Shown piece after piece: positions 9,977 to 38,133 of a stretch of 41,012 nt of DNA (positions are counted from its first letter, which is position 1; every line of letters starts with the position of its first letter). A program made the translations under genes and the position numbers. The stretch comes from an uncultured Methanosarcinales archaeon (GTDB taxonomy: Archaea > Nanobdellota > Nanobdellia > Woesearchaeales > DSVV01). The notes beneath the pieces were generated by a model that was not told the DNA's origin, did not search any database, and saw only the letters and a program-made list of their open reading frames with translations. The DNA is taken from NCBI GenBank assembly GCA_964590935.1, contig CAZPXC010000005.1, forward strand, positions 1 to 41,012. Direction: 5' to 3'.

Positions 9977-11461
9977 ATGGCAAAAAAGATAATCTATGAG
10001 CCAAGCCGGAGCCTCAAGCAGTACAGGCTGCTCACAGGCAGGACATCTGCCGGCTCTATCCCTCCAAAAGTCAGCCTCAGGACAAGGCTCTGCTGCTCTT
10101 CCGGGGGGCACGTACACCTCAATATCCCGCTTATCAGCGCTGCTATGCAGGCTGTTTCCGGAAAAAGGATGGCCATAGCGCTCGCGCAGCACGGCGGGAT
10201 CAGCGTGATACCATGCAGCATCCCCATTGATGAGCAGGCAGGCATCATAAAAGACGTAAAACGGTTCAAGGCAGGCTTCCAGAAAGATGTGGTGGCAGTA
10301 TCAAGGGATGACAAGATCTCTGGCATTGCAAAGATAATAAAAGAGAAGGGTTACGGAAAGTTTCCTGTAACATCTAACGGGAAAGGTGACGGCAGGCTGA
10401 TTGGCATCATAACCAGGAAAAATTTCGACATAAGGGAGCATGCGCAGGACAGGGTCAGCCAGCACATGGCGACGAAAGTGATCACAGCAGGAGTCGGTAT
10501 AAGCCTGCATGATGCGAACATGAAGATGGTAAAGCACGGCATTGATGTGCTGCCAATTGTGGATAAGAGAAATAATCTCAAACTTATGGTTTTCAAGAAG
10601 GACATGGAGAAGCACCTTGATTTTCCCAATAGCTCTGTTGACGAGGGCAAGAGGTATCTTGTTGCGGCTGCTGTCTCGACCCAGCCGGCTGACAGGAAGA
10701 GGATAGACGCTGTCATCAGTGCCGGAGCTGATGTCATATTTATCGACTCATCTGACGGCTACAGCGATTTCCAGGCCGAGACCCTCAAATACATAAGAAA
10801 AAGATCAAAGAGCATAAGCGTTGTCGGCGGCAATGTTATAACCGCCGAGGCGTTCGATTTTCTTGCCGAGGCTGGGTTTGATGCAGTCAAGGTCGGCATG
10901 GGCATAGGCTCTGGGTGCATCACCCAGGCACAGAAAGGCACAGGCAGGGGCCAGGCCACTGCCCTGATCGACATCTGCCTTGCAAGGGACGATCATTTCA
11001 GCCGGACAGGCAGGTACATCCCGGTGATATCAGACGGCAGCATCGCAAATTCAGGGCAGATAGCTGTAGCGCTTGCGCTAGGCGCTGACTCTGTGATGAT
11101 GGGGCGCTTCTTTGCACAGTTTACAGAGTCGGCAGGCGGCCTGAGGCAGCACCCGACGATGGGGCCTCTGAAGGAATACTGGATGGAGGCATCTGCCCGT
11201 GCAAGAAACTACGGCCGTTATGAGACAAGATCCGAGCTTTTCTTTGAGGAGGGAGTCGAGGGCTTTGTTCCCCATGTGGGTTCCATGTATGACCACCTGG
11301 GAGAGACCCTGCTCAAGCTGAAGTCTTCCTTCAGCAGCGCAGGATGCAAAAGCATTGATGAGCTGCACAAGGACTCGGTCGTGGAACTGCAGTCGATAGC
11401 CGCTCTTGAAGATTCAGATGTGCACGGCGTGATCACCCAGCAGCTGTTTTCTCAGCATTAG
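9977..11461 (+). CDS. guaB: Inosine-5'-monophosphate dehydrogenase (TIM barrel with inserted CBS pair)
   Basis: LNIPLISAAMQAVSG, an inserted CBS pair (~aa 95-210), DVIFIDSSDGYS, catalytic Cys loop GMGIGSGCITQAQKGTGRGQATAL, ISDGSI..SGQIAVALALGADSVMMG, EEGVEGFVPHVGS. The Cys loop deviates from the canonical GSICTT. Confidence 0.85.
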   Translation: MAKKIIYEPSRSLKQYRLLTGRTSAGSIPPKVSLRTRLCCSSGGHVHLNIPLISAAMQAVSGKRMAIALAQHGGISVIPCSIPIDEQAGIIKDVKRFKAGFQKDVVAVSRDDKISGIAKIIKEKGYGKFPVTSNGKGDGRLIGIITRKNFDIREHAQDRVSQHMATKVITAGVGISLHDANMKMVKHGIDVLPIVDKRNNLKLMVFKKDMEKHLDFPNSSVDEGKRYLVAAAVSTQPADRKRIDAVISAGADVIFIDSSDGYSDFQAETLKYIRKRSKSISVVGGNVITAEAFDFLAEAGFDAVKVGMGIGSGCITQAQKGTGRGQATALIDICLARDDHFSRTGRYIPVISDGSIANSGQIAVALALGADSVMMGRFFAQFTESAGGLRQHPTMGPLKEYWMEASARARNYGRYETRSELFFEEGVEGFVPHVGSMYDHLGETLLKLKSSFSSAGCKSIDELHKDSVVELQSIAALEDSDVHGVITQQLFSQH

Positions 11462-11490
11462 GTTACAATCTTACACCGTCTTGCAAAAAC

Positions 11491-11504
11491 ATAATATTTA
11501 ATAA
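11491..11504 (+). promoter_or_regulatory. TATA-like box upstream of array paralog A
   Basis: ATAATATTTAATAA ends 27 nt before ATG 11532, a longer spacing than in the other paralogs, so a short leader is possible. Confidence 0.4.
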
Positions 11505-11531
11505 TGCGGATTATAAGTTATTGTTATTAGT

Positions 11532-13442
11532 ATGGGAAACGGGTTTTTGTTTTTGATTGTCGGGATGTTTATTGTAGTTGGACTTGTGGGGGGTGTTAGC
11601 GCATATACTCTTCCGTCTGACAGGACAATTGACTGGCATGAGGTGGGGATTCCTGGAGGAATACCCTCCAGGACAACGATTTGTGCTGTAATAGATAGTA
11701 CAACCTATGGGAGTGGCACGACTGATGCAACAAGCGCAATACAATCAGCACTTAATTCATGCCCTGCAAATCAGGCAGTTTATATCCCTGCAGGCACGTA
11801 TCTTGTGAGTAGTACAATCAGGATTCCCAGTAATGTAACACTCAGAGGAGAAGGCAGTAATACAGTAATTCATGCTCAGGGTTCAGGCTCTTCACTTATC
11901 TCTTTTGGAAATAGCGCAACTCCTTCACCCTCGAATTCTGTCTCGATAACAGGCGGTTCTACAAAAGGTTCACAGACCATTACACTAAGTGATGCAAGCG
12001 GGATCTCAGTTGGATCTTATCTGATGGTTACTCAGCTTAATGATCCAGATCTAGCGACTATACAGAGTAGTGAGGGAAGCACTAGTTGCACATGGTGTGA
12101 TTTATGGGGCGGGACGCGTGTTATGGGTCAGATTGTTGAGGTCACAACCGTTAATGGAAATACTGTTGGGATATCACCGGGGCTCTACATGAATTACACT
12201 CTTACTCCGTATGCTACAGGATTTAATGCAGTAGCAAAGTATGCGGGCTTGGAAAACCTTAAGATTTCAATGTATAATACAGGTTATACTGCAAACATAA
12301 GGATGGACGGATCTGCGTATTGCTGGGTTAAAGGCATAGAAAGCGATTATACTGACGGAGATCATCTTGAGGCCTTGTCTGCTTATCGAGGAGAGATCAG
12401 AGATAGTTACTTTCATGATGCATATCATCATACTCCTGGCACAACTGATGCCGATGTTTTTATTGCTGAAAAGTCAAGCGGGTTTCTGGTGGAGAACAAT
12501 GTTTTAAGGAGGTTGCATTCAGCAATAATGCTTAACTGGGGAGCCTCTGGAAATGTTATTGCATATAATTATCTGGACGGTTGTTTTGATCAGGGTGCTA
12601 CAAATGTGTTGATTATGGATATGTCCATGCATGGCGCGCATCCTATGTTTAATCTGTACGAGGGCAATAGCATGGCGACTTTTGCTCCAGACGGCATATG
12701 GGGCTCATCCAGCCATAACACTGTATTTAGGAATAACATGCGAGGAACAACACTTATTTGTGAGCCTACTGGTAGTGTCCGTAGTCCAGAGACCACTGAC
12801 TGCCATTGGGCTGTGCAGGCAAACCGCGCAATCAGCCTCGGCTTTGCTTCTACGCATTACAACATCCTTGGCAATGCGGTCGGTAGCCCTGAAATGCTTG
12901 CACTCACGATCTATAATGGAGGGACTCCTATGGGCATGCAGACAACGACCATCTGCCCGCAGTCTACTTCATATGATGCAGTAGCTTATAGTTTTTCGTT
13001 TGGTCATGTAAGTGGTGTTGAGGATAATTGCATGAGCGGATGGGGTAACTCTTCATATACAACGGCGATTCTTCACGGTAATTATGATTATGTATCAAAT
13101 TCTGTCTTGTGGAACTCAGGCATTTCTGACCATAACCTGCCAAGTTCACTTTTTCTGACTTCAAAGCCAGCGTGGTTTGGAAATCTACAATGGCCCGCTA
13201 TAGGACCAGATGTAATCGGATATGTAAGCATGATCCCTGCTCAATATTGTTATGAACAGGGACTTATGCCAGGCTGTCTCATTAGTTCTCCTGCTGGTTC
13301 ATGTGCATCGGCAGCAGACAGCGATGGAGATTCAGTTGTTTCAAATGGAGAATTGGCATATTATATCTCTGAATGGAAGCATGGCAACGTCACGATCGGT
13401 GACTTGATCGCAGCCATCGGCGAATGGAAGAACGGGTGCTAA
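11532..13442 (+). CDS. Array paralog A: secreted right-handed beta-helix protein (Pectate_lyase_3-like N-terminus) with C-terminal tag
   Basis: Signal peptide MGNGFLFLIVGMFIVVGLVGGVSA. RTIDWHEVGIPGGIPSRTTICA and TTDATSAIQSALNSCPANQAVYIPAGTYLV resemble the start of tailspike/pectate-lyase-3 beta-helices. LPSSLFLTSKPAWFGNLQWPAIGPDV is shared with B and F. Tag at 13302-13439. Confidence 0.85.
   Translation: MGNGFLFLIVGMFIVVGLVGGVSAYTLPSDRTIDWHEVGIPGGIPSRTTICAVIDSTTYGSGTTDATSAIQSALNSCPANQAVYIPAGTYLVSSTIRIPSNVTLRGEGSNTVIHAQGSGSSLISFGNSATPSPSNSVSITGGSTKGSQTITLSDASGISVGSYLMVTQLNDPDLATIQSSEGSTSCTWCDLWGGTRVMGQIVEVTTVNGNTVGISPGLYMNYTLTPYATGFNAVAKYAGLENLKISMYNTGYTANIRMDGSAYCWVKGIESDYTDGDHLEALSAYRGEIRDSYFHDAYHHTPGTTDADVFIAEKSSGFLVENNVLRRLHSAIMLNWGASGNVIAYNYLDGCFDQGATNVLIMDMSMHGAHPMFNLYEGNSMATFAPDGIWGSSSHNTVFRNNMRGTTLICEPTGSVRSPETTDCHWAVQANRAISLGFASTHYNILGNAVGSPEMLALTIYNGGTPMGMQTTTICPQSTSYDAVAYSFSFGHVSGVEDNCMSGWGNSSYTTAILHGNYDYVSNSVLWNSGISDHNLPSSLFLTSKPAWFGNLQWPAIGPDVIGYVSMIPAQYCYEQGLMPGCLISSPAGSCASAADSDGDSVVSNGELAYYISEWKHGNVTIGDLIAAIGEWKNGC
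13302..13439 (+). other. 46-aa Cys-bracketed dockerin/EF-hand-like C-terminal tag (A)
   Basis: CASAADSDGDSVVSNGELAYYISEWKHGNVTIGDLIAAIGEWKNGC-stop. Confidence 0.8.
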
Positions 13443-13445
13443 AGG

Positions 13446-13459
13446 CAAAATTTAAATAT
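13446..13459 (+). promoter_or_regulatory. TATA/BRE-like box of paralog B
   Basis: CAAAATTTAAATAT ends 21 nt before GTG 13481. Confidence 0.55.
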
Positions 13460-13480
13460 CCATTATATCAAAGTAATTCT

Positions 13481-15775
13481 GTGAAAAAGAGGGCAACTGT
13501 TTTTGGAATTGTTCTGCTGATTGGATTATTTGTTTTTGCAAACTGGGCTGGTGCTGGCATAATATCTCCGGACAGAAGGATCGACTGGTCGCAGGCAGGT
13601 GTTCCCGGAGGGATACCCGACAGGACAACTGTCTGTGCAACACTCAGTCCCGGAGCGACTCTTTCGCAGATCAATTCTGCCATCCAGAACTGTCCTGCCA
13701 ACCAGGTAGTGTACCTAAGTTCCGGCACATACAACATAGCGGGACAGATAGAATTCAACAACAAAAAGAACGTGACGCTGCGCGGTGCAGGGGCTGACCA
13801 GACCCAGTTGGTCTGGAGCAGCGCTGGAGACGGGGCAGGGCTCGGGGCGACAATCTACATCAACAACGGCGATGACAACTATGGCCTCAGCCCGAAGAAC
13901 ACTGCAAGCTGGACATCAGGCTATGCCATGGGAACGACAGTCATCACCCTTTCCAGCACAAGGAACCTTCACGTCGGCAGCCAGCTTTACCTTGACCAGC
14001 TGGATGACTCAAGTCCAGGAGACGGCTGGTTCGTGAGCGGAAGCACGAGTTACAGTCAGCAGGGAGGGACTGAAGGCTTCGGGCGCCCGGGCCGGTTCCA
14101 GGTCCAGGTGGTGGTGGTGCAGGCAATCAACGGCAACCAGGTGACGATCAAGCCAGGCGTATACCTGCCGAATTTCCGTTCCAGCCAGTCGCCGGGAGCA
14201 TGGTGGTCGAACAACCTTCCTGCCACCGGAATCGGCATCGAGGACATGACTCTTGACTTCAGGAACGCGGGAAACCCTATTGGAGGGATATTCGCATGGA
14301 ACACCGAGGCGAGCTGGATAAAAGGGTGCCGCATTCTGAACCGGCTTGTCCACAAGCATATATGGCTCTACGGAGCATCCAGATGCACTGTCCGGGACAA
14401 TTATTTTTATGGCTCCACCGGAACATCCGAAAGCTACGGCGTTGACGTCGGCCCGGCATCTTCGGATGTATTGGTAGAGAACAACATATTCGATCATGTC
14501 ACGGCACCCATCCTGCAGGAAGATACGACCGGCCTTGTCGGAGCCTATAACTATGCAAAGGACGACTATTACATAGCATGGGACGCGTGGCAGCAGGGCT
14601 CGTTCTACCATCATCATGCAGGAGATGCCATGGTCCTCTGGGAGGGCAACATCGGCGTTGGGGTGTATTCCGACGACATACACGGAACATCAAACGGCTA
14701 TACTGTTTTTCGCAATTACTTGTATGGACTGGATATTGGAGAGGAGGTGAAGACAGCGAGCACGAACGCTCTGATGATTGAGGCGTTCAACCGCTTCTAC
14801 AACTATATTGGTAACGTGCTCGGCACAGCGGGATACTTCACGCATTATGAGCACATACCGACATCATCAACCGATCCGGGAAGTTCAGATTATTCCGATC
14901 ATTCAATATACAACATGGGATACTCGGCAAACCAGGGCACATACTGGTCAGGCCCTCCTTCCATACCAAACGATGTTCTTACTGCCACAGGATCTATGCG
15001 CTGGGGCAACTACGACTCGGTCAGCGGCACAGTGAGATGGAACGCAGACGAGGTGCCCAACGGGCTGAACCAGTACGCAAATCCTGTTCCCGGCGACCAC
15101 AACCTGCCAGCGTCGCTGTACCTTGCGGCAAAACCCAGCTGGTGGTCGTCAAATATTCCCTGGCCGGCAATCGGGCCTGATGTCAGCGGCGGCAACATTG
15201 CAGGAGTGGGAGGTCATGTATACAAGATCCCTGCCCAGGTCTGTTATGAAAACACTCCGAAGACAGGTGCAATCCTTGAGTTCAACGCAGATGACTGTTA
15301 TCCTACTGGTCAGGTTCCTTCAGACACAACCCCGCCGGTAAGAAGCAATGGGGGGCCATCAGGAACATTGGCATATGGCACAACTTCAACGACGATATCA
15401 TTGAGCACGGACGAAGCAGCAACATGCAGATACTCAACAACAGCAGGCGTTTCATATGCATCAATGACACACACCTTTTCAACGACAGGCGGGACAGCTC
15501 ATTCAACAGCTGTAGCAGGCTTGACAAATGGAGGAAGCTACAACTATTATGTAAGATGCGTTGACGGAGCAGGCAATGCGAATACAGATGATAGTTTTGC
15601 TATTAGTTTTAGTGTTGCAAGTCAGGCAACCTCATGTACATCTGATGCTGATGCCGATGGGGATTCGGTCGTTTCAACAGCTGAACTAATAGATTATGTC
15701 TCTGAATGGAAATCAGGAAGCGTTTCAATAAGCGACCTGATCGCTGCGATCGACGAATGGAAGAACGGCTGCTAA
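13481..15775 (+). CDS. Array paralog B: secreted beta-helix protein (same class as A) + beta-sandwich 'ATCRYS' module + C-terminal tag
   Basis: Start reassigned to GTG 13481 (GTGAAAAAGAGGG is homologous to ATGAAAAAGAGG of the paralogs); the track start 13424 lies inside gene A. Signal peptide VKKRATVFGIVLLIGLFVFANWAGAG. RRIDWSQAGVPGGIPDRTTVCA. 'ATCRYS' module ~15325-15625. Tag 15635-15772. Confidence 0.85.
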   Translation: MKKRATVFGIVLLIGLFVFANWAGAGIISPDRRIDWSQAGVPGGIPDRTTVCATLSPGATLSQINSAIQNCPANQVVYLSSGTYNIAGQIEFNNKKNVTLRGAGADQTQLVWSSAGDGAGLGATIYINNGDDNYGLSPKNTASWTSGYAMGTTVITLSSTRNLHVGSQLYLDQLDDSSPGDGWFVSGSTSYSQQGGTEGFGRPGRFQVQVVVVQAINGNQVTIKPGVYLPNFRSSQSPGAWWSNNLPATGIGIEDMTLDFRNAGNPIGGIFAWNTEASWIKGCRILNRLVHKHIWLYGASRCTVRDNYFYGSTGTSESYGVDVGPASSDVLVENNIFDHVTAPILQEDTTGLVGAYNYAKDDYYIAWDAWQQGSFYHHHAGDAMVLWEGNIGVGVYSDDIHGTSNGYTVFRNYLYGLDIGEEVKTASTNALMIEAFNRFYNYIGNVLGTAGYFTHYEHIPTSSTDPGSSDYSDHSIYNMGYSANQGTYWSGPPSIPNDVLTATGSMRWGNYDSVSGTVRWNADEVPNGLNQYANPVPGDHNLPASLYLAAKPSWWSSNIPWPAIGPDVSGGNIAGVGGHVYKIPAQVCYENTPKTGAILEFNADDCYPTGQVPSDTTPPVRSNGGPSGTLAYGTTSTTISLSTDEAATCRYSTTAGVSYASMTHTFSTTGGTAHSTAVAGLTNGGSYNYYVRCVDGAGNANTDDSFAISFSVASQATSCTSDADADGDSVVSTAELIDYVSEWKSGSVSISDLIAAIDEWKNGC
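15635..15772 (+). other. 46-aa C-terminal tag (B)
   Basis: CTSDADADGDSVVSTAELIDYVSEWKSGSVSISDLIAAIDEWKNGC-stop. Confidence 0.8.
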
Positions 15776-15782
15776 AGAAACT

Positions 15783-15796
15783 AAATATTTTTAAAT
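15783..15796 (+). promoter_or_regulatory. TATA/BRE-like box of paralog C
   Basis: AAATATTTTTAAAT ends 23 nt before ATG 15820. Confidence 0.6.
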
Positions 15797-15819
15797 CCTG
15801 TTCATTCATTATAATATTT

Positions 15820-17460
15820 ATGAAAAGAAAGAGGTTAATCGTTTTTTGGATAATTTTAGTAATTGGACTATTGGTTTTTATCGAATGTGTTAATGCTGCT
15901 ACGATCACTACAGAGTCGTGCTCAGAGACAGATGTTCAGAATGCAATTAATTCTGCAGATGATGGAGATACAGTCAATGTGCCTGCCGGGAGCTGCACAT
16001 GGACATCTGGTGCGACGATTCCTGATGGTGTTAAATTAATAGGGGCCGGAGCTTTTGATGCAGATGGCGGAAAGAATACAGTGATTTCATCTTCTGGTTT
16101 CATAGTAACACATCTTGGCACTGGTTCCTGGTTAGAGGGTTTTAAATTTGTCAATGGCATTGCGAAACCAGATAATAATGCAGGGGAGCAGGACTGGGTC
16201 ATAAAAGATAATTATTTTGGCAATACAGGGGGCAAACAATATATTGGCGTTTCCAGGGGGGATGGAAATGGAGATGCTGATTATGAAAAGGGAACTACTG
16301 CTGGTGAGCCACCTAGTGGGGTATATCACGGCAATTATCTCTATAACATTAAGATGACTAATAATGGAAAAATAACAGGAGAAACAGCCTGGTATGAACC
16401 TACTAACCCAGGCGGAACAGACCATGCGGTTTATTTTGAAAACAACACTTTTGATCTGTCAGGCAATGTATACCCAGACAATAATGTTTTTGATTCATCT
16501 TTCGGCGGGAGAACGGTATTTAGGTTCAATAAATTTATAAACGCCAGGATGGAGCAGCATGGCGCATGGGAGGCAGATTCAAGCGGAGGCAACCCTCATC
16601 GTGGGCCAAGACTTCTCGAAGCATATGACAATTATTGGGATATGGATTACTCATTATCATATAATGCCTGGCTGATACGCTCGTTGGGGGGCATAAATCT
16701 TATCTTTAACAATTTCTGCAAAGATACAGCTTTTGGAGGCGCTTATTGTGATATAGAACTGTTGCAGTATCGGTCAAGCGGGTCAAATGGAGGATACTGC
16801 AGTCCAGATGGTTCAAACCCTTTTGACACTCCAGGGGATGCAGACACTCTTGCCGGTACGCCGGCGGCAGGAAAAGTTGGCTGTCGTGATATGCATGGAA
16901 TGGGAAAGGATTCTGCTTTAAGCCCTACACTTGTTAAGGGAGATGATAGTACAGATGACCAGGCTGACCAGTATTATGAGCCGAGCTACATATGGAACAC
17001 CACTTATTATGATGGTAACGTAATGGTACAGACATCTGTAAGTAATCTAGATACAGATTATATTACAGAAAACATAAATTATTTCCAGGGTGATGGAACT
17101 GCTGATGCAGGGGTTAGATCTGGAAAATTTGCATCTGCTCCTGAATGTAATCCTTCCACTGCTTATTATGGTTATTGGGCAACAGACCAGGGAGACTGGA
17201 ATTCAGAGAATCCTGGGCCAGACGGACAGTTATATGTTTGTGATGGTGCAAACTGGAATCTGTATTATACTCCCGCTCCCTACCCACACCCCCTGATATC
17301 AGGTGGCTCAGGTTTAACATGCACCTCAGGCGCAGATTCTGATGGTGATTCATCTGTTTCAACCGAGGAGTTGGTTGATTATATCTCTTATTGGAAAAAT
17401 GGAAGTGTTGCGATAGGCGACCTGATTTCCGCGATTGCAGAGTGGAAGAACGGGTGCTAG
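15820..17460 (+). CDS. Array paralog C: secreted beta-helix-like protein, 'INAA-CS / VPAGSCTW' class, with C-terminal tag
   Basis: Start ATG 15820 (track 15706 begins inside B). Signal peptide MKRKRLIVFWIILVIGLLVFIECVNA. SCSETDVQNAINSADDGDTVNVPAGSCTW. C-terminal DGQLYVCDGANWNLYYTPAPYPHPL. Tag 17320-17457. Confidence 0.85.
   Translation: MKRKRLIVFWIILVIGLLVFIECVNAATITTESCSETDVQNAINSADDGDTVNVPAGSCTWTSGATIPDGVKLIGAGAFDADGGKNTVISSSGFIVTHLGTGSWLEGFKFVNGIAKPDNNAGEQDWVIKDNYFGNTGGKQYIGVSRGDGNGDADYEKGTTAGEPPSGVYHGNYLYNIKMTNNGKITGETAWYEPTNPGGTDHAVYFENNTFDLSGNVYPDNNVFDSSFGGRTVFRFNKFINARMEQHGAWEADSSGGNPHRGPRLLEAYDNYWDMDYSLSYNAWLIRSLGGINLIFNNFCKDTAFGGAYCDIELLQYRSSGSNGGYCSPDGSNPFDTPGDADTLAGTPAAGKVGCRDMHGMGKDSALSPTLVKGDDSTDDQADQYYEPSYIWNTTYYDGNVMVQTSVSNLDTDYITENINYFQGDGTADAGVRSGKFASAPECNPSTAYYGYWATDQGDWNSENPGPDGQLYVCDGANWNLYYTPAPYPHPLISGGSGLTCTSGADSDGDSSVSTEELVDYISYWKNGSVAIGDLISAIAEWKNGC
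17320..17457 (+). other. 46-aa C-terminal tag (C)
   Basis: CTSGADSDGDSSVSTEELVDYISYWKNGSVAIGDLISAIAEWKNGC-stop. Confidence 0.8.
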
Positions 17461-17465
17461 AGAAG

Positions 17466-19058
17466 ATGAATAATAAAAATATTTTTTTGATATTTGTCGT
17501 TGGGATGTTTATTTTAGTTGCTTTTGCCGGGAGTGCATGTGGCGAAACAATAAACGCAGCGTCATGTTCCCAGGCAGATGTCCAGGCGGCGATCGACTCT
17601 GCTTCTGGTGGAGATACCGTTAATGTGCCTGCTGGAAGTTGCACCTGGTCAAATCGGCTCGTGATAACCAAAGGGATCAAACTAATAGGTGCTGGCGACG
17701 GGGTTACATATAGCAATGGAACAGTGATCACATGTACCTATTCGTCAGGCCATATCGAGGGTTCAGATGGTTATGCAGTTGTTTATTCTCCTGACCAATC
17801 TGATAGGGTTGCAGGATTTAGGTTGTCAGGATTTGAGTTTGACTTCTCTGGTTTGTCTGAGGGCATAGGGATCTGGAACGAGCTTGCAAACCAGTGGAAC
17901 AATCCCGTAACAAATGTCAGGGTTGACCATAACATATTGAAAGATGGCAGGCAGGAATGGATGGTGATTGGAGGGGTTGTCTACGGTGTTGCTGACAATA
18001 ACATAATAGACCATACGACTGGTGGGGGTTCGAGTGACGGCATAGACCATATGGGGCTGGGAGATGGCGCCTGGCAGCATATGTCATATGAGTTCGGAAC
18101 GTCTGAGACCTGGTTCTGGGAAGACAACACGTTCAAGTCCACATCAGGATATCTTGGCGACAACTGGGATTGCACAAACGGTGCGAGATATGTTGCAAGG
18201 TACAACACTATACAGGAGACAGGCGATGCTGGCGCCATGCCGGCATTTAATTTTCATGGGAATACAGGATCGGTGAACAGCTGTATGGGGATGGAAATAT
18301 ACCGCAATTCCATAACAGCAGGAACGAGTAACCATTACATCACAACCCAGCGCGGAGGGAAAGCCGTTGCATTTGACAATTCTGTCAGCAGTCACGCTTC
18401 GGATTATATATCATATGTAGCAGATTATGGTGCAAGCTGTAATGGCCAGGGTTGTGATACCCTGACCGCTTATCCGGTCAGCCAGGTCAGTGGAGAGCCA
18501 CAGCACCCGAGCGATTCGTATTACTGGAATAACGAGGTTCATGGGTCTGTCTCTTATGATTATAAAATTTATTGTGTACTGGGTTACTCTGGACCTGGTT
18601 GTACAGGCGCGGATGTTTGTTGCCCATCTTATCCTCCTTATAGGAATGTGCCACAGGAGGGTTTGGATGTCTGGTTTCAGCATCCAACATTCGATGGCAC
18701 GGCGGGAGTTGGAGTAGGCACCAAAGCCCAGATGGATGCGATCACCACCTGCACAGAAGGGGTCGGTTATTGGGTAACTGATGAAGGAGATTGGAATTCA
18801 GAAAGCCCAGGTCCCGATGGGCAACTATACAGGTGCGGTTCATCAAACAACTGGGTCCTTTATTACACACCTTATACATATCCGCATCCATTAAGAGAGG
18901 ATGGAACTGGCCCGGTTTGCGGGGCATCTGATAACAATCCCCTTGACGGTGTTGTTTCAAACGAAGAATTAACTGATTATATTTCTTCCTGGAAATCAGG
19001 AGATGTTGCGATAGGCGACCTGATCGCTGCGATTGCAGAATGGAAGAATGGATGCTGA
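17466..19058 (+). CDS. Array paralog D: secreted protein of the 'INAA-CS / VPAGSCTW' class with variant C-terminal tag; no own promoter
   Basis: ATG 17466 is only 5 nt after the stop of C and has no TATA box, so it is probably co-transcribed. Signal peptide MNNKNIFLIFVVGMFILVAFAGSA. SCSQADVQAAIDSASGGDTVNVPAGSCTW. DGQLYRCGSSNNWVLYYTPYTYPHPL. Tag 18918-19055. Confidence 0.85.
   Translation: MNNKNIFLIFVVGMFILVAFAGSACGETINAASCSQADVQAAIDSASGGDTVNVPAGSCTWSNRLVITKGIKLIGAGDGVTYSNGTVITCTYSSGHIEGSDGYAVVYSPDQSDRVAGFRLSGFEFDFSGLSEGIGIWNELANQWNNPVTNVRVDHNILKDGRQEWMVIGGVVYGVADNNIIDHTTGGGSSDGIDHMGLGDGAWQHMSYEFGTSETWFWEDNTFKSTSGYLGDNWDCTNGARYVARYNTIQETGDAGAMPAFNFHGNTGSVNSCMGMEIYRNSITAGTSNHYITTQRGGKAVAFDNSVSSHASDYISYVADYGASCNGQGCDTLTAYPVSQVSGEPQHPSDSYYWNNEVHGSVSYDYKIYCVLGYSGPGCTGADVCCPSYPPYRNVPQEGLDVWFQHPTFDGTAGVGVGTKAQMDAITTCTEGVGYWVTDEGDWNSESPGPDGQLYRCGSSNNWVLYYTPYTYPHPLREDGTGPVCGASDNNPLDGVVSNEELTDYISSWKSGDVAIGDLIAAIAEWKNGC
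18918..19055 (+). other. 46-aa C-terminal tag, loop variant (D)
   Basis: CGASDNNPLDGVVSNEELTDYISSWKSGDVAIGDLIAAIAEWKNGC-stop. Confidence 0.8.
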
Positions 19059-20679
19059 AAAGAAAAACATAGCTTGGGTAGCTGGGATTTTATTTCTCTT
19101 AATGGCCACGGAAGCGATGGGCACGACTTACTATGTTGATAAAAATTCTATAGGAGGCATCTGCTCTGACAGTAATCCTGGAACTATTGTTCAGCCCTGG
19201 TGCAGTATAAAATACGCAGCTAATACACTAGTTGCAGGAGATACTGTAAACATTAGGCAAGGAACCTACTCTGAGACAGATATCTATCCCAGCAGATCAG
19301 GGACTTCGGGTAATTATATAACATATAAAGTCTATCAAAATGAAAATGTTACTATTGATGCTACAGGAGCCGATGACTCTGCGTTTTACATATATAATTT
19401 AGACTATATTAAGATTGATGGCAGCGGACTTGATAACCAAATCCATCTATACTTTGAAAAGGGAGACTGGGTTATTATGCTAAGGGCTTCTGATTATGTT
19501 TGGGTGACTCATGTGGATGTTTCTGGGTCCCCTTATAATGATGGTTTGAAGCTGACGTCTGATCATCAAGGGGGACAGGGGGATGATGACAGCGGTTCAA
19601 AGCATTGTATAATTGAGTACTCTAGTTTTCACGATAACGGAGATTATGGAATAAAGTTAACAGGCTATGGCACTAGTTATAATACTATAAGATATAATAA
19701 TTTTTATTCAAATGGTGCCACAGGCTCTGACAAGTACGGTATGCAAATCTCAGGCGGAGAATATGAGGATAATCAGCCACAACATAATGAGCTTTATGGG
19801 AATAAGTTTTATAATAACCTGGGTTGTGGAATTCATTTATATGAAAGTTCAAATAACATCCTTAGAGAAAATGAATTTTATAACAATGGAATAGGAACCT
19901 CAAATCCCGCAAGAGGAATAAGTCTTAGCTTAAATTCAAAGAATAATCTTGTTTATGGAAACCGAGTTTACAATAATAATTACTATGGAATAGAATGCAG
20001 TAGTCATGCAGATTCAAACAAGATCTACAATAATATAATTTATGACAATGCTGAAGAGGGAATTATGATACAGGGGGGCTCATCTAAAAACGAAATTTAT
20101 AGTAACACGATATCCGGAGGAACTAATGGAGGGATATATCTATCATCAGATACGCAGGATACAATAATCAAAGACAATATAGTACTTACTATGGGAACTC
20201 AACCTACACTGCATAATGGAGGCGGCGGAACTGCGACCCTGGATTACAATCTGTGGTATGACTCGGTTACCCCAGATCTTATCTACTGGAATGGTGTTTT
20301 TCGGACTCTTTCACAATTTTATGCAGACACAGGAAATGAACAGCATGGCCTGCAAACAAATCCTCTTTTTATTGATCTCGCTTCTCATGATTTTTATATT
20401 CAGGCCGGTTCCCCAGCAATCAACAATGGAATAAGCCTTTCAGCATATTTTTCAACAGATTTTGCGGGAACAATAAGGCCCCAGGGCAGCGCCTGGGATA
20501 TAGGAGCATACGAATATGTTTCAGGAACAGGGGCTGTTTGCGGAGCAGCAGACAACAATCCATCTGATGGTGTTGTTTCAGGTGGAGAATTAGTTGATTT
20601 TATCTCCGGATGGAAACAGGGAGATGTTACGATCAGTGATTTGATCGCTGCGATTGCAGAATGGAAGAACGGGTGCTGA
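19048..20679 (+). CDS. Array paralog E: secreted PbH1-repeat beta-helix protein ('TYYV' class) with variant C-terminal tag; start overlaps D
   Basis: ATG 19048 sits inside D's ...EWKNGC codons (11-nt overlap); the track start 19033 is a TTG. Signal peptide MDAEKKNIAWVAGILFLLMATEAMG. TTYYVDK...GDTVNIRQGTYSE. Many NN-I-N repeats (YNNNYYGIECS, IYNNIIYDN). RPQGSAWDIGAYEY. Tag 20539-20676. Confidence 0.8.
   Translation: MDAEKKNIAWVAGILFLLMATEAMGTTYYVDKNSIGGICSDSNPGTIVQPWCSIKYAANTLVAGDTVNIRQGTYSETDIYPSRSGTSGNYITYKVYQNENVTIDATGADDSAFYIYNLDYIKIDGSGLDNQIHLYFEKGDWVIMLRASDYVWVTHVDVSGSPYNDGLKLTSDHQGGQGDDDSGSKHCIIEYSSFHDNGDYGIKLTGYGTSYNTIRYNNFYSNGATGSDKYGMQISGGEYEDNQPQHNELYGNKFYNNLGCGIHLYESSNNILRENEFYNNGIGTSNPARGISLSLNSKNNLVYGNRVYNNNYYGIECSSHADSNKIYNNIIYDNAEEGIMIQGGSSKNEIYSNTISGGTNGGIYLSSDTQDTIIKDNIVLTMGTQPTLHNGGGGTATLDYNLWYDSVTPDLIYWNGVFRTLSQFYADTGNEQHGLQTNPLFIDLASHDFYIQAGSPAINNGISLSAYFSTDFAGTIRPQGSAWDIGAYEYVSGTGAVCGAADNNPSDGVVSGGELVDFISGWKQGDVTISDLIAAIAEWKNGC
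20539..20676 (+). other. 46-aa C-terminal tag, loop variant (E)
   Basis: CGAADNNPSDGVVSGGELVDFISGWKQGDVTISDLIAAIAEWKNGC-stop. Confidence 0.8.
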
Positions 20680-20684
20680 TAACT

Positions 20685-20698
20685 AAACATTTTTAAAG
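20685..20698 (+). promoter_or_regulatory. TATA/BRE-like box upstream of paralog F
   Basis: AAACATTTTTAAAG ends 21 nt before ATG 20720. That ATG now opens only a 3-codon ORF (ATG AAA AGA TAG, 20720-20731); the F start is 26 nt further, at 20746. Confidence 0.55.
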
Positions 20699-20745
20699 TC
20701 TGTTAATCTTATATTTTTCATGAAAAGATAGGGGTCTGAAAAGAG

Positions 20746-23655
20746 ATGAAAGATAAAAATGTCTTTTTGTTTTTTATCATTGAAACATTTATTTTTATGA
20801 TATTTGTCTGGAATGCTTCTGCCACGGATATTTCAATCAGTTGTTCATCCGCATCCAGTGTGAATTCCGCAATATCCTCTGCGGAAGACGGTGATATACT
20901 GGAATGCACTGGCTCCGGATGGTCGTCTGGTATTGTTACGATGCCAACTGATAAGGGCATCACACTGGATGGAAACGGGGCGACAGTAAACGGAGGAGGG
21001 TTAACCATTGATGCTAGCTCTTATTTTAACAGGGTTACCAATATTCATTTCATCAACATTCCTGAACAAGGGATTTCAGTAGACGGTACCCTGACCAGCC
21101 AGCCATGGAGGATGGATCACTGTACATTTGCATCAAACAATCATCATGTGATTGTGGGGAACAGGTATGCCACGGGTGTTATAGACCATTCCACGTTTAC
21201 GCTTTCGCTTTCAAACCATGAGTTTATAGCAAATTGGGGATGGGGGCCCGGAAGCACTACAGGATGGACCAATTCACAACCTCCGGGTAGCCGGGCAGCT
21301 TTGTATATCGAGGATTGCACTGTTAACGGCATACCTGGCTCTACGGCAGACTGTTTGATCCAGGACTATTACGGATCAAGGGCAGTAATCAGATACAATA
21401 CCATAAGTAACGCTATGATCGAAGCCCATGGGAACACAGCATACTCCACAAGGTGGCTGGAGATCTATAAGAATACGTTTCCAGGATCAAATCTGGACAT
21501 ATGCATGAGGGGCGGTTCAGGTATAGTTTTCGGCAATGACAACCCTTCCAGCAGGTTTGTAGAGGAAATCCTTAATTGTGCTGGTGGTGATAGTGGATGT
21601 GATGAGGTCGGAAAGGGCCAGGATTGGGTTCAGTATCCCCTATATTGGTGGGACAACGCAGGCGCATCTCCCACATTGAATCAGGAGGGATGCGCGCCTG
21701 CAATCTCCGGTGCAATTGTAGCCGGCCTTGATGTCATATCCGGCGTCGGAAGCGGAACATCATTGCCCGCTACCTGCCAACAGTATGATGCTTATTGGAA
21801 AACAGATGCAGGAGGGAACTGGGACACCACCAACGGGGATTCAAACGACGGAGCGCTTTATAAGTGCGATGCCAGCGGAAACTGGCAGCTCTATTACATT
21901 CCATACACTTATCCGTATTCGCTTACAGGCTCAGCAGGCCAAAGCAATGCGATTATTCCTGCCGACAGGAGGATCGACTGGAGCGGTGCCGGCGTTTCAG
22001 GAGGTATCCCGGTCAGGGATACAATATGTGCAAATGTGAAAAATGCACCGTACAATGCTTATGGCGATGGTGTACATGATGATACAGCCGCAATCCAGCA
22101 GGCGCTCGATGACTGTCCTGACAACCAGGTGGTCTACATGCCGCCGGGAACATACAGGACAACTGACACCGTTCACCTGTACAGCTATGACACGCTGCGC
22201 GGTGCAGGGCCTGGCCAGTCCATAATCAGCCTGGACAGCGATGCTCGCTCAGCCCTGGATATCAGGGGAAACTTCTATTGGGCAGTGACCGGTGTGCAGA
22301 AGATATATTCAGTCACAGACGGCATGTCCAAAGGCTCGACCCAGGTAACGCTGAGCGATGTCACTGACATCAATGTAGGAGACGAGCTCCTGATAGACCA
22401 GCTGAATGACGGCGATACTGTGGATGCGCTTGGCAGCGAAGGCTTCTGTACCTACTGTGGCCGTGCAGAGGGAACAAGGACAAAGGGGCAGATCGTCGAT
22501 GTGACAGGGGTATCGGGAAAGAACGTCATGATAAGCCCGCCGCTTTATTGGAGCCTCAACGCATCACTGAGCCCAGAGGCAGTGCTTGTCGATGACAATT
22601 GGCTGATAAAGCATGCCGGGGTCGAGAACCTGAGCATAACCCAGCCTGCCCCGCATGCCATGTATCTGGTGGAGATCGATGGTGCGGCCTACTCGTGGCT
22701 GAAGGATGTGGAGCTGTCCAATGCCGACTGGAGGCTGGTCTGGATGATCGAAAGCCTCCACAACGAGATAAGGGACAGCTATTTCCATACAGGTCTGACC
22801 GGTTACGGCAGATCCCATGGTTACGGTGTGCTCCTGGACGACTACACTACGGCAAGCCTGGTGGAAAACAACATATTCGAAAGCCTGGACGGCGGCTGTG
22901 TCATGACAGGAGGAGGCGCCTCTGGCAATGTCATAGGGTACAACTATTTCGTCGATGCAAGGTTCGACGACGAATGGTGGATGACGCCCAGCCCTTCGCT
23001 CAACCATAATCCCCACCCTTCCATGAACCTCTGGGAAGGCAACATAGGCTATCAGGCTGAGGCTGACGACATCCACGGCTCAAGCAGCCATAATACTGTC
23101 TTCAGGTGCGTCTCGAAAGGCTACCAGAACGAGACCATCACCTCGTTCAACAATGCCGTAACGCTCGGCTATAAGCAGAGGTACTACAATGTGATCGGCT
23201 GCATACTTGGCACGCCCGGCAAGTCCCAGGTGTATGAACAGGCACCGCCGGGCAATGCGAATTCTGATGTAAGGACGATATGGAATCTCGGCTATGGCGG
23301 GCCAAACAATGCGGTTGATACACAGACCAAAGCAACATTGCTGCGGCACGGCAATTTCGACTATGTGACGAACTCCGTCGTCTGGGACCCGTCTATCAGC
23401 GATCACAGCCTGCCTGATTCGCTCTATCTCTCTTCAAAGCCGTCCTGGTTCGGCTCTGTGCCCTGGCCTCCTATAGGGCCTGACGTCACGGGCTATGTGA
23501 ACAAGATACCGGCTCAGATGAGGTTCGAAGGCATGCCTAGCTGTACCTCTATCACAAACATCCAACTTCTGGCTGTGCTCAACCAATGGCGGACAGGGGA
23601 TATTACCATGTCCCAGATGCTGCAGGCGATAGCTGTTTGGAAGAACGGCTGCTGA
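20746..23655 (+). CDS. Array paralog F: fusion of a C/D-class body (aa ~27-394) and an A/B-class beta-helix body (aa ~403-930) with a shortened 37-aa tag
   Basis: Signal peptide MKDKNVFLFFIIETFIFMIFVWNASA. SCSSASSVNSAISSAEDGDILEC...DGALYKCDASGNWQLYYIPYTYPYSL is followed directly by IIPADRRIDWSGAGVSGGIPVRDTICA...YGDGVHDDTAAIQQALDDCPDNQVVYMPPGTY...LPDSLYLSSKPSWFGSVPWPPIGPDV. Tag 23542-23652. Confidence 0.85.
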   Translation: MKDKNVFLFFIIETFIFMIFVWNASATDISISCSSASSVNSAISSAEDGDILECTGSGWSSGIVTMPTDKGITLDGNGATVNGGGLTIDASSYFNRVTNIHFINIPEQGISVDGTLTSQPWRMDHCTFASNNHHVIVGNRYATGVIDHSTFTLSLSNHEFIANWGWGPGSTTGWTNSQPPGSRAALYIEDCTVNGIPGSTADCLIQDYYGSRAVIRYNTISNAMIEAHGNTAYSTRWLEIYKNTFPGSNLDICMRGGSGIVFGNDNPSSRFVEEILNCAGGDSGCDEVGKGQDWVQYPLYWWDNAGASPTLNQEGCAPAISGAIVAGLDVISGVGSGTSLPATCQQYDAYWKTDAGGNWDTTNGDSNDGALYKCDASGNWQLYYIPYTYPYSLTGSAGQSNAIIPADRRIDWSGAGVSGGIPVRDTICANVKNAPYNAYGDGVHDDTAAIQQALDDCPDNQVVYMPPGTYRTTDTVHLYSYDTLRGAGPGQSIISLDSDARSALDIRGNFYWAVTGVQKIYSVTDGMSKGSTQVTLSDVTDINVGDELLIDQLNDGDTVDALGSEGFCTYCGRAEGTRTKGQIVDVTGVSGKNVMISPPLYWSLNASLSPEAVLVDDNWLIKHAGVENLSITQPAPHAMYLVEIDGAAYSWLKDVELSNADWRLVWMIESLHNEIRDSYFHTGLTGYGRSHGYGVLLDDYTTASLVENNIFESLDGGCVMTGGGASGNVIGYNYFVDARFDDEWWMTPSPSLNHNPHPSMNLWEGNIGYQAEADDIHGSSSHNTVFRCVSKGYQNETITSFNNAVTLGYKQRYYNVIGCILGTPGKSQVYEQAPPGNANSDVRTIWNLGYGGPNNAVDTQTKATLLRHGNFDYVTNSVVWDPSISDHSLPDSLYLSSKPSWFGSVPWPPIGPDVTGYVNKIPAQMRFEGMPSCTSITNIQLLAVLNQWRTGDITMSQMLQAIAVWKNGC
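23542..23652 (+). other. Degenerate 37-aa C-terminal tag lacking the acidic loop (F)
   Basis: CTSITNIQLLAVLNQWRTGDITMSQMLQAIAVWKNGC-stop; the 9 residues corresponding to GADSDGDSV are missing. Confidence 0.75.
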
Positions 23656-23660
23656 TAACC

Positions 23661-23674
23661 AAACATTTTTAAAA
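23661..23674 (+). promoter_or_regulatory. TATA/BRE-like box of paralog G
   Basis: AAACATTTTTAAAA ends 21 nt before ATG 23696. Confidence 0.6.
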
Positions 23675-23695
23675 TCTGCTTGTTCATTATAATTT

Positions 23696-38091: not shown

Positions 38092-38098
38092 AGAAACC

Positions 38099-38112
38099 AA
38101 ATATTTTTAAAT
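38099..38112 (+). promoter_or_regulatory. TATA/BRE-like box of paralog O
   Basis: AAATATTTTTAAAT ends 21 nt before ATG 38134. Confidence 0.6.
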
Positions 38113-38133
38113 TCTGTTTATCTATTATATAAA

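What the first reader, a model, noticed from the sequence alone, without database searches (positions are those of the whole stretch)
21922..21951. Paralog F is a fusion of two array bodies in which tag, promoter and signal peptide were deleted
F reads like a C/D-class protein up to ...DGALYKCDASGNWQLYYIPYTYPYSLTG. Compare C, which continues ...YTPAPYPHPLISGGSGLTC-tag. After a 7-aa linker (SAGQSNA), F continues with IIPADRRIDWSGAGVSGGIP. This is the first mature residues of an A/B-class protein; compare B, signal peptide ...WAGAG|IISPDRRIDWSQAGVPGGIP. The missing piece is precisely one junction unit. This is what unequal recombination or deletion between cassette boundaries would produce, and it creates a two-headed 969-aa protein. 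My hand counts of 100-nt samples give ~44% GC in the first body (20801-20900) and ~60% in the second (22601-22700).
Basis: seen in the sequence. Interest (0 to 1): 0.65.

Follow-up and report, generated by a model that had tools for sequence, protein, structure and literature searches.

The report
Two secreted beta-helix genes fused
One gene in a tandem array of secreted surface-protein genes of a Woesearchaeota-like archaeon is a real in-frame fusion of two different beta-helix proteins, an ordinary kind of gene fusion, and this same pair of protein families has been fused many separate times in other microbes.

Summary
ORF F (20746-23655, 969 aa) has five parts. They are a signal peptide, a C/D/L-class beta-helix body ("b1"), a 10-aa linker LTGSAGQSNA (21922-21951), an A/B-class PF12708 beta-helix body ("b2") starting at its mature N-terminus IIPADRRIDW (21952), and a C-terminal tag. 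No tag, TATA-bearing spacer or signal peptide lies between the bodies.

- **Derived fusion:** both bodies nest among single-body proteins. The closest b2 relative (P0001, 93% aa) is a stand-alone gene with its own signal peptide, and DNA homology to it starts exactly at 21952.
- **Old paralogs:** F's bodies are only 24-39% identical to C/D/L/A/B, so no breakpoint can be mapped inside the window.
- **Mechanism:** every DNA repeat in the array is a junction unit, so unequal homologous crossover would keep a unit at the joint. An illegitimate in-frame deletion is needed, and it is inferred, not shown.
- **Unfused relative:** it carries A's 5' region, so it may itself be rearranged.
- **Recurrence:** b1+b2 fusions arose at least six times elsewhere, and b1→b2 occurs as adjacent separate genes in bacterial polysaccharide loci.

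This is a Rosetta-stone type fusion, a new member of a known kind. Interest is modest.

The parts
20680..20745 (+). E/F junction spacer. It holds a TATA-like element CATTTTTAAAG (20688-20698) and a disabled canonical start ATGAAAAGATAG (20720-20731, reading MKR-stop).
   Evidence: The spacer is 66 nt against about 40 nt at other junctions. The canonical ATG lies 40 nt after E's stop but runs into TAG.
20746..20823 (+). Signal peptide of F, MKDKNVFLFFIIETFIFMIFVWNASA (residues 1-26).
   Evidence: Sequence features: a charged N-terminus, a hydrophobic helix and an ASA|T site. AF2 predicts a helix at 4-21 with low pLDDT. No signal-peptide predictor was available.
20824..21921 (+). Body 1 (b1), a right-handed beta-helix of the C/D/L class (residues 27-392). 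It ends with the conserved YWKTDAGGNWD...LYKC...YPY motif and has no Pfam family.
   Evidence: blastp to D/L/C 24-27%. It is 75% identical to the N-half of P0003. The AF2 model of F1 alone has pLDDT 90.4. Foldseek's best hits are PL6 lyases at E about 1e-3. There is no Pfam hit.
21922..21951 (+). Fusion linker LTGSAGQSNA (residues 393-402).
   Evidence: One search gives the translation. AF2 pLDDT is below 50 at 394-401. No k-mer of 14 nt or more within 100 nt either side is repeated elsewhere in the window.
21952..23533 (+). Body 2 (b2), a PF12708-type beta-helix of the A/B class (residues 403-929). It starts at the mature N-terminus IIPADRRIDW.
   Evidence: Pfam PF12708 E 2.5e-14. It is 86.9% identical in DNA to L001 504-2084 over 1582 nt. 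Against P0001, dN/dS is 0.05. Foldseek hits are phage tailspike depolymerases and capsule lyases at E about 1e-11.
23534..23655 (+). Short-form C-terminal tag ...GMPSCTSITNIQLLAVLNQWRTGDITMSQMLQAIAVWKNGC plus the stop codon. It lacks the DxDxDG acidic loop that the other 14 tags carry.
   Evidence: Tag alignment. Only P0001 and P0184 share the short form. AF2 predicts two helices at 938-949 and 955-966. There is no hit to NF041540, whereas 12 of the 17 aligned tags hit it weakly.
23656..23695 (+). Canonical F/G junction spacer with AAACATTTTTAAAA. Gene G starts at 23696.
   Evidence: F+2892..G+306 is 80.9% identical to the J/K junction.

Best explanation
F is a genuine, expressed-as-one-protein fusion of two formerly separate secreted beta-helix genes. 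The upstream gene belonged to an unannotated b1 family, and the downstream one to the PF12708-type b2 family and carried its own short-form tag.

An in-frame, non-homologous deletion removed the end of the b1 gene (its stop, and its tag if it had one). It also removed the TATA-bearing spacer and the b2 signal peptide. What remained is one promoter, one signal peptide, a disordered linker of about 10 aa, and one tag for two bodies.

The product is a secreted two-headed glycan-binding or glycan-cleaving protein. Both heads are exported and positioned together, in 1:1 ratio, through the single dockerin-like tag.

The join was probably kept because b1 and b2 act on the same polymer. The two families are neighbours in bacterial exopolysaccharide/O-antigen loci and have been fused repeatedly in either order.

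Shown: the architecture, the derived status, the right-hand boundary at 21952, purifying selection on b2, and the recurrence of the pairing. Inferred: a single deletion between adjacent cassettes, a former tag on F1, and enzymatic function.
For: - **Continuous ORF, exact domain boundaries:**
- **Two-domain structure:** AF2 gives two confident beta-helix domains (mean pLDDT 86.7) separated only by residues 394-401 at pLDDT below 50.
- **Unfused b2 relatives:** the closest, P0001, is a stand-alone gene with a signal peptide, and DNA homology starts at 21952. All nearer b2 outgroups are single-body with a signal peptide followed by [A/E]IIPADRRIDW.
- **b1 outgroups:** mostly about 400-aa stand-alone proteins.
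- **Purifying selection on b2:** against P0001, dN 0.036, dS 0.717, ratio 0.05.
- **Tag travelled with b2:** the short-form tag is shared only with b2-ending proteins P0001 and P0184.
- **Adjacent unfused pairs:** b1→b2 occurs as separate adjacent genes in L013/L014 and L015, next to Wzy_C, glycosyltransferases and heptose-pathway genes.
- **Recurrent fusion:** 16 b1+b2 fusions among 307 collected homologs, with at least 6 independent origins. P0184 is a second tag-bearing archaeal example with the same joint geometry, YPHPL-RQTSND-IIPAGR.
- **Homologous crossover excluded:** junction units are the only DNA repeats in the array.
Against: - No unfused F1 ortholog with a tag was found. The closest F1 relative, P0003 (75%), is itself fused to a different (I-class) body at what looks like the same linker position (TGSCSNC|HYV against TGSAGQSNA|IIP). 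That could mean F1 was already a fusion partner in the common ancestor and the second body was swapped.
- P0001 carries gene A's upstream region, so adjacency of F1 and F2 before the fusion is not demonstrated.
- No reads, no second assembly of F and no expression data are available.
- Catalytic residues were not examined. The bodies could be binding modules rather than enzymes.
Confidence: 0.7

Rival explanations
1. Body exchange rather than deletion between neighbours. The F2 body with its short tag originally sat directly after IMPDH, as in L001. It was joined to F1's linker by recombination at module boundaries, or a block of about 10.3 kb (A body through the F1 linker, roughly 11604-21951) was inserted at the signal-peptide/mature boundary of that gene.
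For: - In L001 the F2-type gene lies immediately after IMPDH, with an intergenic region 81% identical to the one in front of A.
- Both ends of the homology between the F2 body and L001 (21952 and 23533) coincide with domain edges, while the flanks differ.
- F2's GC3 (0.655) matches IMPDH (0.62) and other native genes, unlike most cassettes.
- P0003 shows the same b1 with a different second body at the same linker position.
Against: - It needs breakpoints at positions that have no DNA homology.
- One A-to-F2 homeologous deletion in the L001 lineage explains the same data.
- Only one related DNA locus (2.3 kb) is available.
Confidence: 0.18
2. The fused state is older than the split between the window and L001 lineages, and P0001 is a secondary un-fusion. 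Recombination between the similar 5' ends of the A and F2 bodies deleted A through F1 and gave F2 the promoter and signal peptide of A.
For: - The L001 gene is A-like up to ...GVSA and F2-like from IIP onward, so the switch sits at equivalent alignment positions of A and F2.
- One deletion explains this.
- dS of F2 against P0001 (0.72) is of the order of the IMPDH dS (1.1), so both genes are old residents.
Against: - A and F2 share only short runs of identity at that site. AGGATCGACTGG, the longest, is shared with B rather than A.
- The gene downstream of P0001 is J/O-like, not G-like, so more than one rearrangement is needed.
- This rival concerns timing only. It does not contradict F being a derived fusion relative to deeper single-body ancestors.
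Confidence: 0.25
3. Assembly chimera: two cassettes were joined wrongly at about 21.9 kb.
For: The window looks metagenomic, the array is repetitive, composition changes at the joint, and F is not on record in any other assembly.
Against: - The joint lies in unique sequence. No k-mer of 14 nt or more within 100 nt either side occurs elsewhere in the window, and no array repeat touches 20746-23625.
- The frame is preserved, and both edges fall exactly on domain boundaries.
- Both flanks of F carry canonical junction units of the same array.
- Independent proteins with the same joint geometry exist: P0184, P0010, P0003.
Confidence: 0.03

Closest known systems
Rosetta-stone (domain-fusion) proteins: two proteins that are separate in some genomes and fused in others (general concept; from my own knowledge)
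   Same: b1 and b2 are separate adjacent genes in L013/L015. b2 is a separate gene in L001. They are fused in F, P0184, P0009, P0010 and others, in both orders.
   Different: In F the fusion sits inside a tandem array of tagged cassettes. It removed a whole secretion/anchoring junction (tag, promoter-like spacer, signal peptide), not just a stop codon and spacer.
Known two-beta-helix carbohydrate-active enzymes: GH55 beta-1,3-glucanases (PDB 5m5z, 4pex, 8jhh) and two-domain PL6 alginate lyases (5gkd AlyGC, 8bwk, 7dmk)
   Same: They have two right-handed beta-helix domains in one secreted chain. Foldseek aligns F over 740-1030 columns to them (E 1e-5 to 1e-10).
   Different: The rmsd is high (20-27 A), so the relative domain orientation is not the same. 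No sequence-family match was found. F's domains are joined by a short disordered linker and come from two different families. Whether they pack against each other is unknown (pTM 0.65).
Phage tailspike and capsule depolymerases (LKA1 gp49 4ru4; K1 capsule lyase 7w1c; AP22 gp54 4y9v)
   Same: They are the best structural matches for the b2 body (E about 1e-11, TM 0.45-0.52 on the target). The N-terminal part is of the PF12708 type.
   Different: Sequence identity is 11-17%. Trimerisation and active sites were not tested. F is a cellular archaeal gene with a signal peptide and a tag.
GC-type dockerin domain (NCBIfam NF041540), dockerin and EF-hand modules
   Same: Array tags end in GC, contain a DxDxDG...E loop and two helices, and 12 of the 17 aligned tags hit NF041540 (best E 1.4e-4). 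There are weak EF-hand hits.
   Different: All scores are below the curated cut-off (29 bits). F's own tag lacks the acidic loop and gives no hit. No cohesin-like partner was looked for.
Pectin-lyase-like extracellular proteins of DPANN archaea (Nanobdella aerobiophila MJ1_0451/0701/0776; bioRxiv 10.1101/2023.10.27.564410)
   Same: They are secreted beta-helix proteins of a DPANN archaeon, proposed by those authors to act on the glycosylated host cell surface.
   Different: Those proteins combine one beta-helix with Ig-like folds. No sequence comparison was made here, and their function is also only proposed.

Membership tests
Pfam PF12708 (Pect-lyase_RHGA_epim), for body 2 | The whole-protein hmmscan score exceeds the gathering cut-off (27 bits). 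| tested here: met
   54 bits, E 2.5e-14, residues 435-512 against profile positions 6-86 of 213. Only the N-terminal third of the model is matched.
Right-handed parallel beta-helix fold, for both bodies | A confident predicted structure of stacked parallel beta-strand coils, with significant structural matches to solved beta-helix proteins. | tested here: met
   Full F model pLDDT 86.7; F1 model pLDDT 90.4 and pTM 0.89. Foldseek E is 1e-11 for the full model and about 1e-3 (PL6 lyases) for b1 alone. Support for b1 is weaker.
Rosetta-stone gene fusion | Each half has full-length stand-alone homologs encoded as separate genes elsewhere. | tested here: met
   For b2: P0001 (93%) and P0174, P0002-8 (51-57%). 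For b1: P0083-P0112, about 400 aa.
Rosetta-stone gene fusion | The fused state is derived, with the halves nested among unfused relatives. | tested here: met
   NJ trees and nearest-neighbour table. These are distance trees without support values.
Fusion by deletion between adjacent genes | The two halves are adjacent, same-strand genes in a close relative. | tested here: inconclusive
   b1→b2 are adjacent only in distant bacteria (L013/L015; 47% and 36% identity to F1 and F2). In the one close relative (L001), F2 follows IMPDH rather than an F1 gene.
GC-type dockerin (NCBIfam NF041540), for F's tag | The score exceeds the curated cut-off of 29 bits. | tested here: not met
   F's tag gives no hit. 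The other tags hit at best E 1.4e-4, below the cut-off.
GH55 / PL6 two-domain enzymes | Sequence-family membership and conserved catalytic residues. | not tested
   Only fold resemblance with high rmsd was seen. No CAZy family models were available, and active-site residues were not examined.
Product of unequal homologous crossover between array junction units | A junction-unit repeat, or a hybrid of two, is present at the joint. | tested here: not met
   No array repeat touches 20746-23625, and the joint is unique sequence.

The most novel reading that the evidence does not exclude
The array is a combinatorial surface-protein system in which whole bodies are exchanged at exact module edges (signal-peptide/mature boundary and body/tag boundary). 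F, P0003 and P0001 would then be alternative outputs of this shuffling, and the two-headed proteins a regular product rather than an accident. This would amount to a cassette-based variation system in a DPANN archaeon. It rests on one observation: the F2 body is shared at 87% between two genomes while both of its flanks differ, with boundaries at 21952 and 23533.
Probability: 0.08. Interest if true: 0.7.

Novelty: new member of a known kind. Interest (0 to 1): 0.3.

Why it matters
The fusion itself is an ordinary evolutionary event. Three by-products are of some use.

1. The recurrent b1+b2 pairing covers adjacent genes in bacterial exopolysaccharide/O-antigen loci and at least six independent fusions in both orders. 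It functionally links a widespread, completely unannotated secreted beta-helix family (b1, no Pfam model) to PF12708-type enzymes. That gives a concrete hypothesis for b1's role: processing the same polysaccharide.

2. The case shows how a tandem array of tagged secreted proteins in a Woesearchaeota-like archaeon generates multi-headed proteins, and that such products stay under purifying selection.

3. Comparison with L001 shows that the array is rearranged between related genomes at domain-exact boundaries. This is worth a look when longer assemblies of relatives exist.

Tried and rejected
impossible. There is no DNA similarity beyond a 12-18-nt motif, and protein identity is 24-39%.
- **Search for an unfused F1 ortholog carrying a tag:** two further protein searches, with F1 alone and with an F1+P0003 profile, found only stand-alone proteins at 47% identity or less. 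P0003 remains the only close relative.
- **Metagenome contig scans:** one with the F1/P0003 profile and one with a degenerate tag-end DNA pattern. Both found nothing, although the pattern matches 8 tags in the window.
- **DNA of the P0003 contig (JGI 3300075153):** not retrievable, so the F/P0003 linker resemblance could not be checked at the DNA level.
- **Exact look-up of F in other assemblies:** not on record.
- **IMPDH-anchored genome scan:** it identified the lineage as Woesearchaeota-like (71-72% identity). None of the species representatives has the array after IMPDH.
- **Two-body architecture as ancestral:** rejected for the deep history on the tree evidence.
- **F2 as the compositionally foreign part:** rejected, because its GC3 equals that of native genes.
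- **Literature searches for Woesearchaeota plus dockerin, and DPANN plus pectin lyase:** nothing on this array or tag. Only the Nanobdella surface-protein preprint was relevant.
Full report
**Setting.** The window carries four kinds of non-array genes: a subtilase, a Cys-rich surface protein, a RelA/SpoT-like gene and IMPDH (9977-11461). After IMPDH come at least 16 same-strand cassettes: A-O, plus one that starts at about 39947. Each cassette encodes a signal peptide, a body and a C-terminal tag of about 45 aa ending in EWKNGC. IMPDH is 71-72% identical to Woesearchaeota MAGs, so the source is a DPANN archaeon of that kind. None of the species representatives has an array after IMPDH, although L002 has an 870-aa protein with the same tag.

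Most cassette boundaries are a conserved junction unit. It consists of the tag end GARTGGAARAAYGGNTGCTRA, a spacer of about 40 nt with AAAYATTTTTAAA about 27 nt before the ATG, and ATGAAA starting the signal peptide. I read AAAYATTTTTAAA as an archaeal TATA-like element; this is an inference. The exceptions are C/D and G/H (5-nt spacers), D/E (overlapping genes), the 133-nt L/M spacer and the 66-nt E/F spacer. Several starts given by the ORF listing are too far upstream, because the tag DNA read in another frame gives MEERVL...

**The observation.** F (20746-23655) is one open frame of 969 aa.
- Residues 1-396 resemble D, L and C (24-27% identity). Residues 398-969 resemble A (38%) and B (33%).
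- The flagged 21922-21951 encodes LTGSAGQSNA. From 21952 the protein reads IIPADRRIDWSGAGVSGGIP.
- That sequence is the mature N-terminus of the A/B class. About 30 single-body homologs read [signal peptide][A/E]IIPADRRIDW.
- On the left side, C, D and L continue from YPHPL through 9-10 residues to the first Cys of the tag. F continues from YPYSL through 9 residues to the second body.
- The hand GC counts are exact (0.44 and 0.60). F1 has GC3 0.467 over 20746-21921 and 0.477 over the body alone. F2 has GC3 0.655.
- The comparison with non-array genes reverses the implied reading. Native genes have GC3 0.48-0.64 (IMPDH 0.62). F2 is native-like, while F1 and most cassettes (0.30-0.49) are the low-GC3 ones.

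**Structure.**
- AlphaFold2 on a 49-sequence alignment gives mean pLDDT 86.7 and pTM 0.65. It predicts two beta-helix domains. Their only inter-domain segment below pLDDT 50 is residues 394-401, which is the linker. There are two terminal helices for the tag.
- Foldseek places the protein among phage tailspike depolymerases and capsule lyases (E about 1e-11). It also aligns F to the known two-beta-helix enzymes (PL6 AlyGC-type lyases, GH55) over 740-1030 columns, but with large rmsd.
- Body 1 alone models well (pLDDT 90.4). It has no Pfam family and only weak matches to solved structures, the best being PL6 lyases at E about 1e-3.
- Body 2 is PF12708-type (54 bits).

**Is the fusion derived?** Yes.
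- *Body 2.* The closest relative is P0001 (590 aa, 93% identical over the body), a stand-alone protein with its own signal peptide. Next come single-body proteins at 51-57% (P0174, P0175, P0002, P0004-8) and 40-47%. In the NJ tree F2+P0001 is nested in this single-body clade. Window A and B, and the other two-body proteins P0009, P0010 and P0015, lie in distant clades.
- *Body 1.* The closest relative is P0003 (75%). Beyond it are stand-alone proteins of about 400 aa at 47% or less.

**The breakpoint.** L001 is a 2308-bp Logan contig carrying P0001.
- It aligns to the window at 86.9% from L001 504 to 2084, which equals window 21952-23533. Homology therefore begins at the first codon after the linker and ends at the last codons of the body (...KIPAQMRFE).
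- The 40 tag codons are only 27.5% identical, although both tags have the same unusual short form.
- Over the body dN = 0.036, dS = 0.717 and dN/dS = 0.05. The fused b2 has stayed under strong purifying selection, and the two lineages are well separated. The IMPDH fragment gives dS of about 1.1.

**A caveat on the unfused version.**
- L001 3-469 aligns at 81% with window 11093-11560. That stretch covers the IMPDH 3' end, the intergenic region and the beginning of gene A's signal peptide. Both signal peptides end in GVSA.
- In L001 the gene right after IMPDH therefore has A's 5' region but F2's body. Its downstream neighbour starts like J/O (89% to the N/O junction).
- Relative to the window, L001 differs by a block running from the start of A's body to the end of F's linker, about 10.3 kb.
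- One explanation is a deletion in the L001 lineage, by recombination between the similar 5' ends of the A and F2 bodies. The other is a more complex rearrangement in the window lineage. Either fits.
- P0001 proves that F2-type bodies function unfused with a signal peptide. It does not prove that F1 and F2 were once adjacent cassettes. It also does not date the fusion relative to the split.

**Mechanism.**
- A self-comparison of the window shows that essentially all DNA repeats within the array are junction units, at 66-87% identity. The exceptions are a few shared modules: B/H over 444 nt, G/K over 367 nt and M/N over 377 nt. None touches 20746-23625.
- Homologous unequal crossover between junction units would change cassette number and leave a unit at the joint. 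It cannot fuse two bodies.
- The joint lies in unique sequence, with no repeated k-mer of 14 nt or more within 100 nt either side. This also argues against a repeat-driven misassembly.
- The most economical origin is an illegitimate in-frame deletion of about 250 nt, retained by selection because both breakpoints fall in inter-domain sequence.
- F's tag is the only short-form tag in the window: it lacks the DxDxDG loop present in the other 14. The short form is otherwise seen on P0001 and P0184, both ending in a b2 body. The tag therefore came with F2, and what was lost belonged to F1.
- Whether F1 had a tag is unknown.
- Its nearest relative, P0003, is fused to an I-class body and then a tag. 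Its linker (YPHPSTRETGSCSNC|HYV) resembles F's (YPYSLTGSAGQSNA|IIP).
- This leaves open that F1 was already an N-terminal fusion partner in the common ancestor, with the second body exchanged later.

**Recurrence of the pairing.**
- In the bacterial contigs L013/L014 and L015, the closest stand-alone b1 genes (P0083, P0084; 46-47% to F1) are each followed by a separate PF12708 gene of 567-570 aa. It lies 167-280 nt downstream on the same strand.
- These pairs sit inside loci with Wzy_C, glycosyltransferases, HldE/GmhA-like genes and asparagine synthase.
- The L013 b2 gene is 48% identical to the b2 halves of the fused proteins P0010 and P0009.
- Among 307 collected homologs, profile searches find 16 true b1+b2 proteins: 11 in the order b1→b2 and 5 in the order b2→b1. 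Their nearest neighbours indicate at least six independent origins.
- P0184 (901 aa) is a second tag-bearing archaeal example. It combines a signal peptide, an L-type b1, the linker RQTSND, IIPAGR... starting a b2 that is only 35% identical to F2, and a short-form tag.
- b1 is also fused to I-class bodies at least twice (P0003, P0030).
- The collection was retrieved with F as the query, so fused proteins are over-represented. The count shows recurrence, not frequency.

**Function (inferred).**
- F is a secreted two-headed beta-helix protein, made from one promoter and one signal peptide and carrying one tag.
- The folds and the genomic company of the stand-alone homologs point to binding or cleavage of a surface or extracellular polysaccharide. 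The fusion would guarantee co-export and co-localisation of two activities on the same substrate.
- For a DPANN archaeon the target could be a host cell envelope, as proposed for pectin-lyase-like proteins of Nanobdella (bioRxiv 10.1101/2023.10.27.564410).
- The array tags resemble GC-type dockerins. NF041540 is hit by 12 of the 17 aligned tags (best E 1.4e-4, below cut-off), and they contain an EF-hand-like loop. F's tag has lost that loop and gives no hit.

**Verdict.** It is unproven on the mechanism, and wrong in so far as it invokes unequal recombination between cassette boundaries. It is also incomplete in missing that this is a recurrent, presumably selected pairing of two families. The finding is a new member of a known kind (domain fusion) and of modest interest.

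Noticed in passing
window 20680-20760: At the E/F junction the canonical start codon, 40 nt after E's stop and about 27 nt after the TATA-like box, opens only ATG AAA AGA TAG (MKR-stop). F's real ATG lies 26 nt further on, in another frame. F's 5' end therefore looks remodelled, and F would have a short leader, unlike its neighbours.
   Followed up: partly
window 11462-40030 (all cassette boundaries): Most of the 15 cassette boundaries share a conserved junction unit: tag end, a spacer of about 40 nt with AAAYATTTTTAAA about 27 nt before the ATG, and the signal-peptide start. Units are 66-87% identical to each other. C/D and G/H have 5-nt spacers, D/E overlap, and L/M has a 133-nt spacer. A sixteenth cassette starts at about 39947.
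   Followed up: partly
window 11532-39930: GC3 differs strongly between cassette bodies (0.30 for E and J up to 0.655 for F2), while non-array genes have 0.48-0.64. Most bodies are well below the native level, which suggests different origins or residence times.
   Followed up: partly
window tags, e.g. 37945-38091; F tag 23534-23652: The tag is C-x3-DxDxDG-x-VS-x2-EL...W-x-G...DLIAAIAEWKNGC, i.e. an EF-hand-like loop, two helices and a Cys at each end. It gives weak hits to NCBIfam NF041540 (GC-type dockerin), and protein O also hits choice-of-anchor Q (NF041518). No cohesin-like partner was sought.
   Followed up: partly
window 15396-15839 ~ 26648-27084; 23638-24002 ~ 30318-30683; 35514-35884 ~ 37714-38090; 28339-28609 ~ 37956-38231: Cassettes are mosaics. 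B and H share an Ig-like module plus tag (76.6% over 444 nt). G and K share their junction plus the first 300 nt of body (80.9%) and then diverge. M and N share their 3' 377 nt. The I/J and N/O junctions, including the J and O signal peptides, are 86.6% identical.
   Followed up: no
L001 1-2308 compared with window 11093-11560, 21952-23533 and 38095-38177: In the related organism the gene directly after IMPDH has A's upstream region but F2's body. It is followed by a J/O-like cassette start. The array is thus rearranged between relatives, with switches at domain-exact positions.
   Followed up: partly
L013 6001-9061; L014 5457-8517; L015 5001-8217: Bacterial exopolysaccharide/O-antigen-type loci (Wzy_C, glycosyltransferases, PfkB/CTP-transferase, SIS, Asn synthase) carry a stand-alone b1 gene immediately followed by a stand-alone PF12708 b2 gene. 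In L013 both proteins end in a similar PPxNFRF tail.
   Followed up: partly
Contig of P0003 (JGI 3300075153, 14.5 kb; no DNA held): It carries four consecutive same-strand genes of 760, 940, 908 and 1149 aa, with the three consecutive starts after the first overlapping the preceding gene by 4 nt. This suggests that multi-body proteins are the rule in that relative's array.
   Followed up: no
window 2807-5569 (- strand): A 920-aa protein has many Cys-rich CxDGxDNDCDG-type repeats, a Ser/Thr-rich stalk and a C-terminal membrane anchor. It contains an internal direct repeat of about 460 nt (3674-4130 ~ 4247-4703, 72.5%).
   Followed up: no
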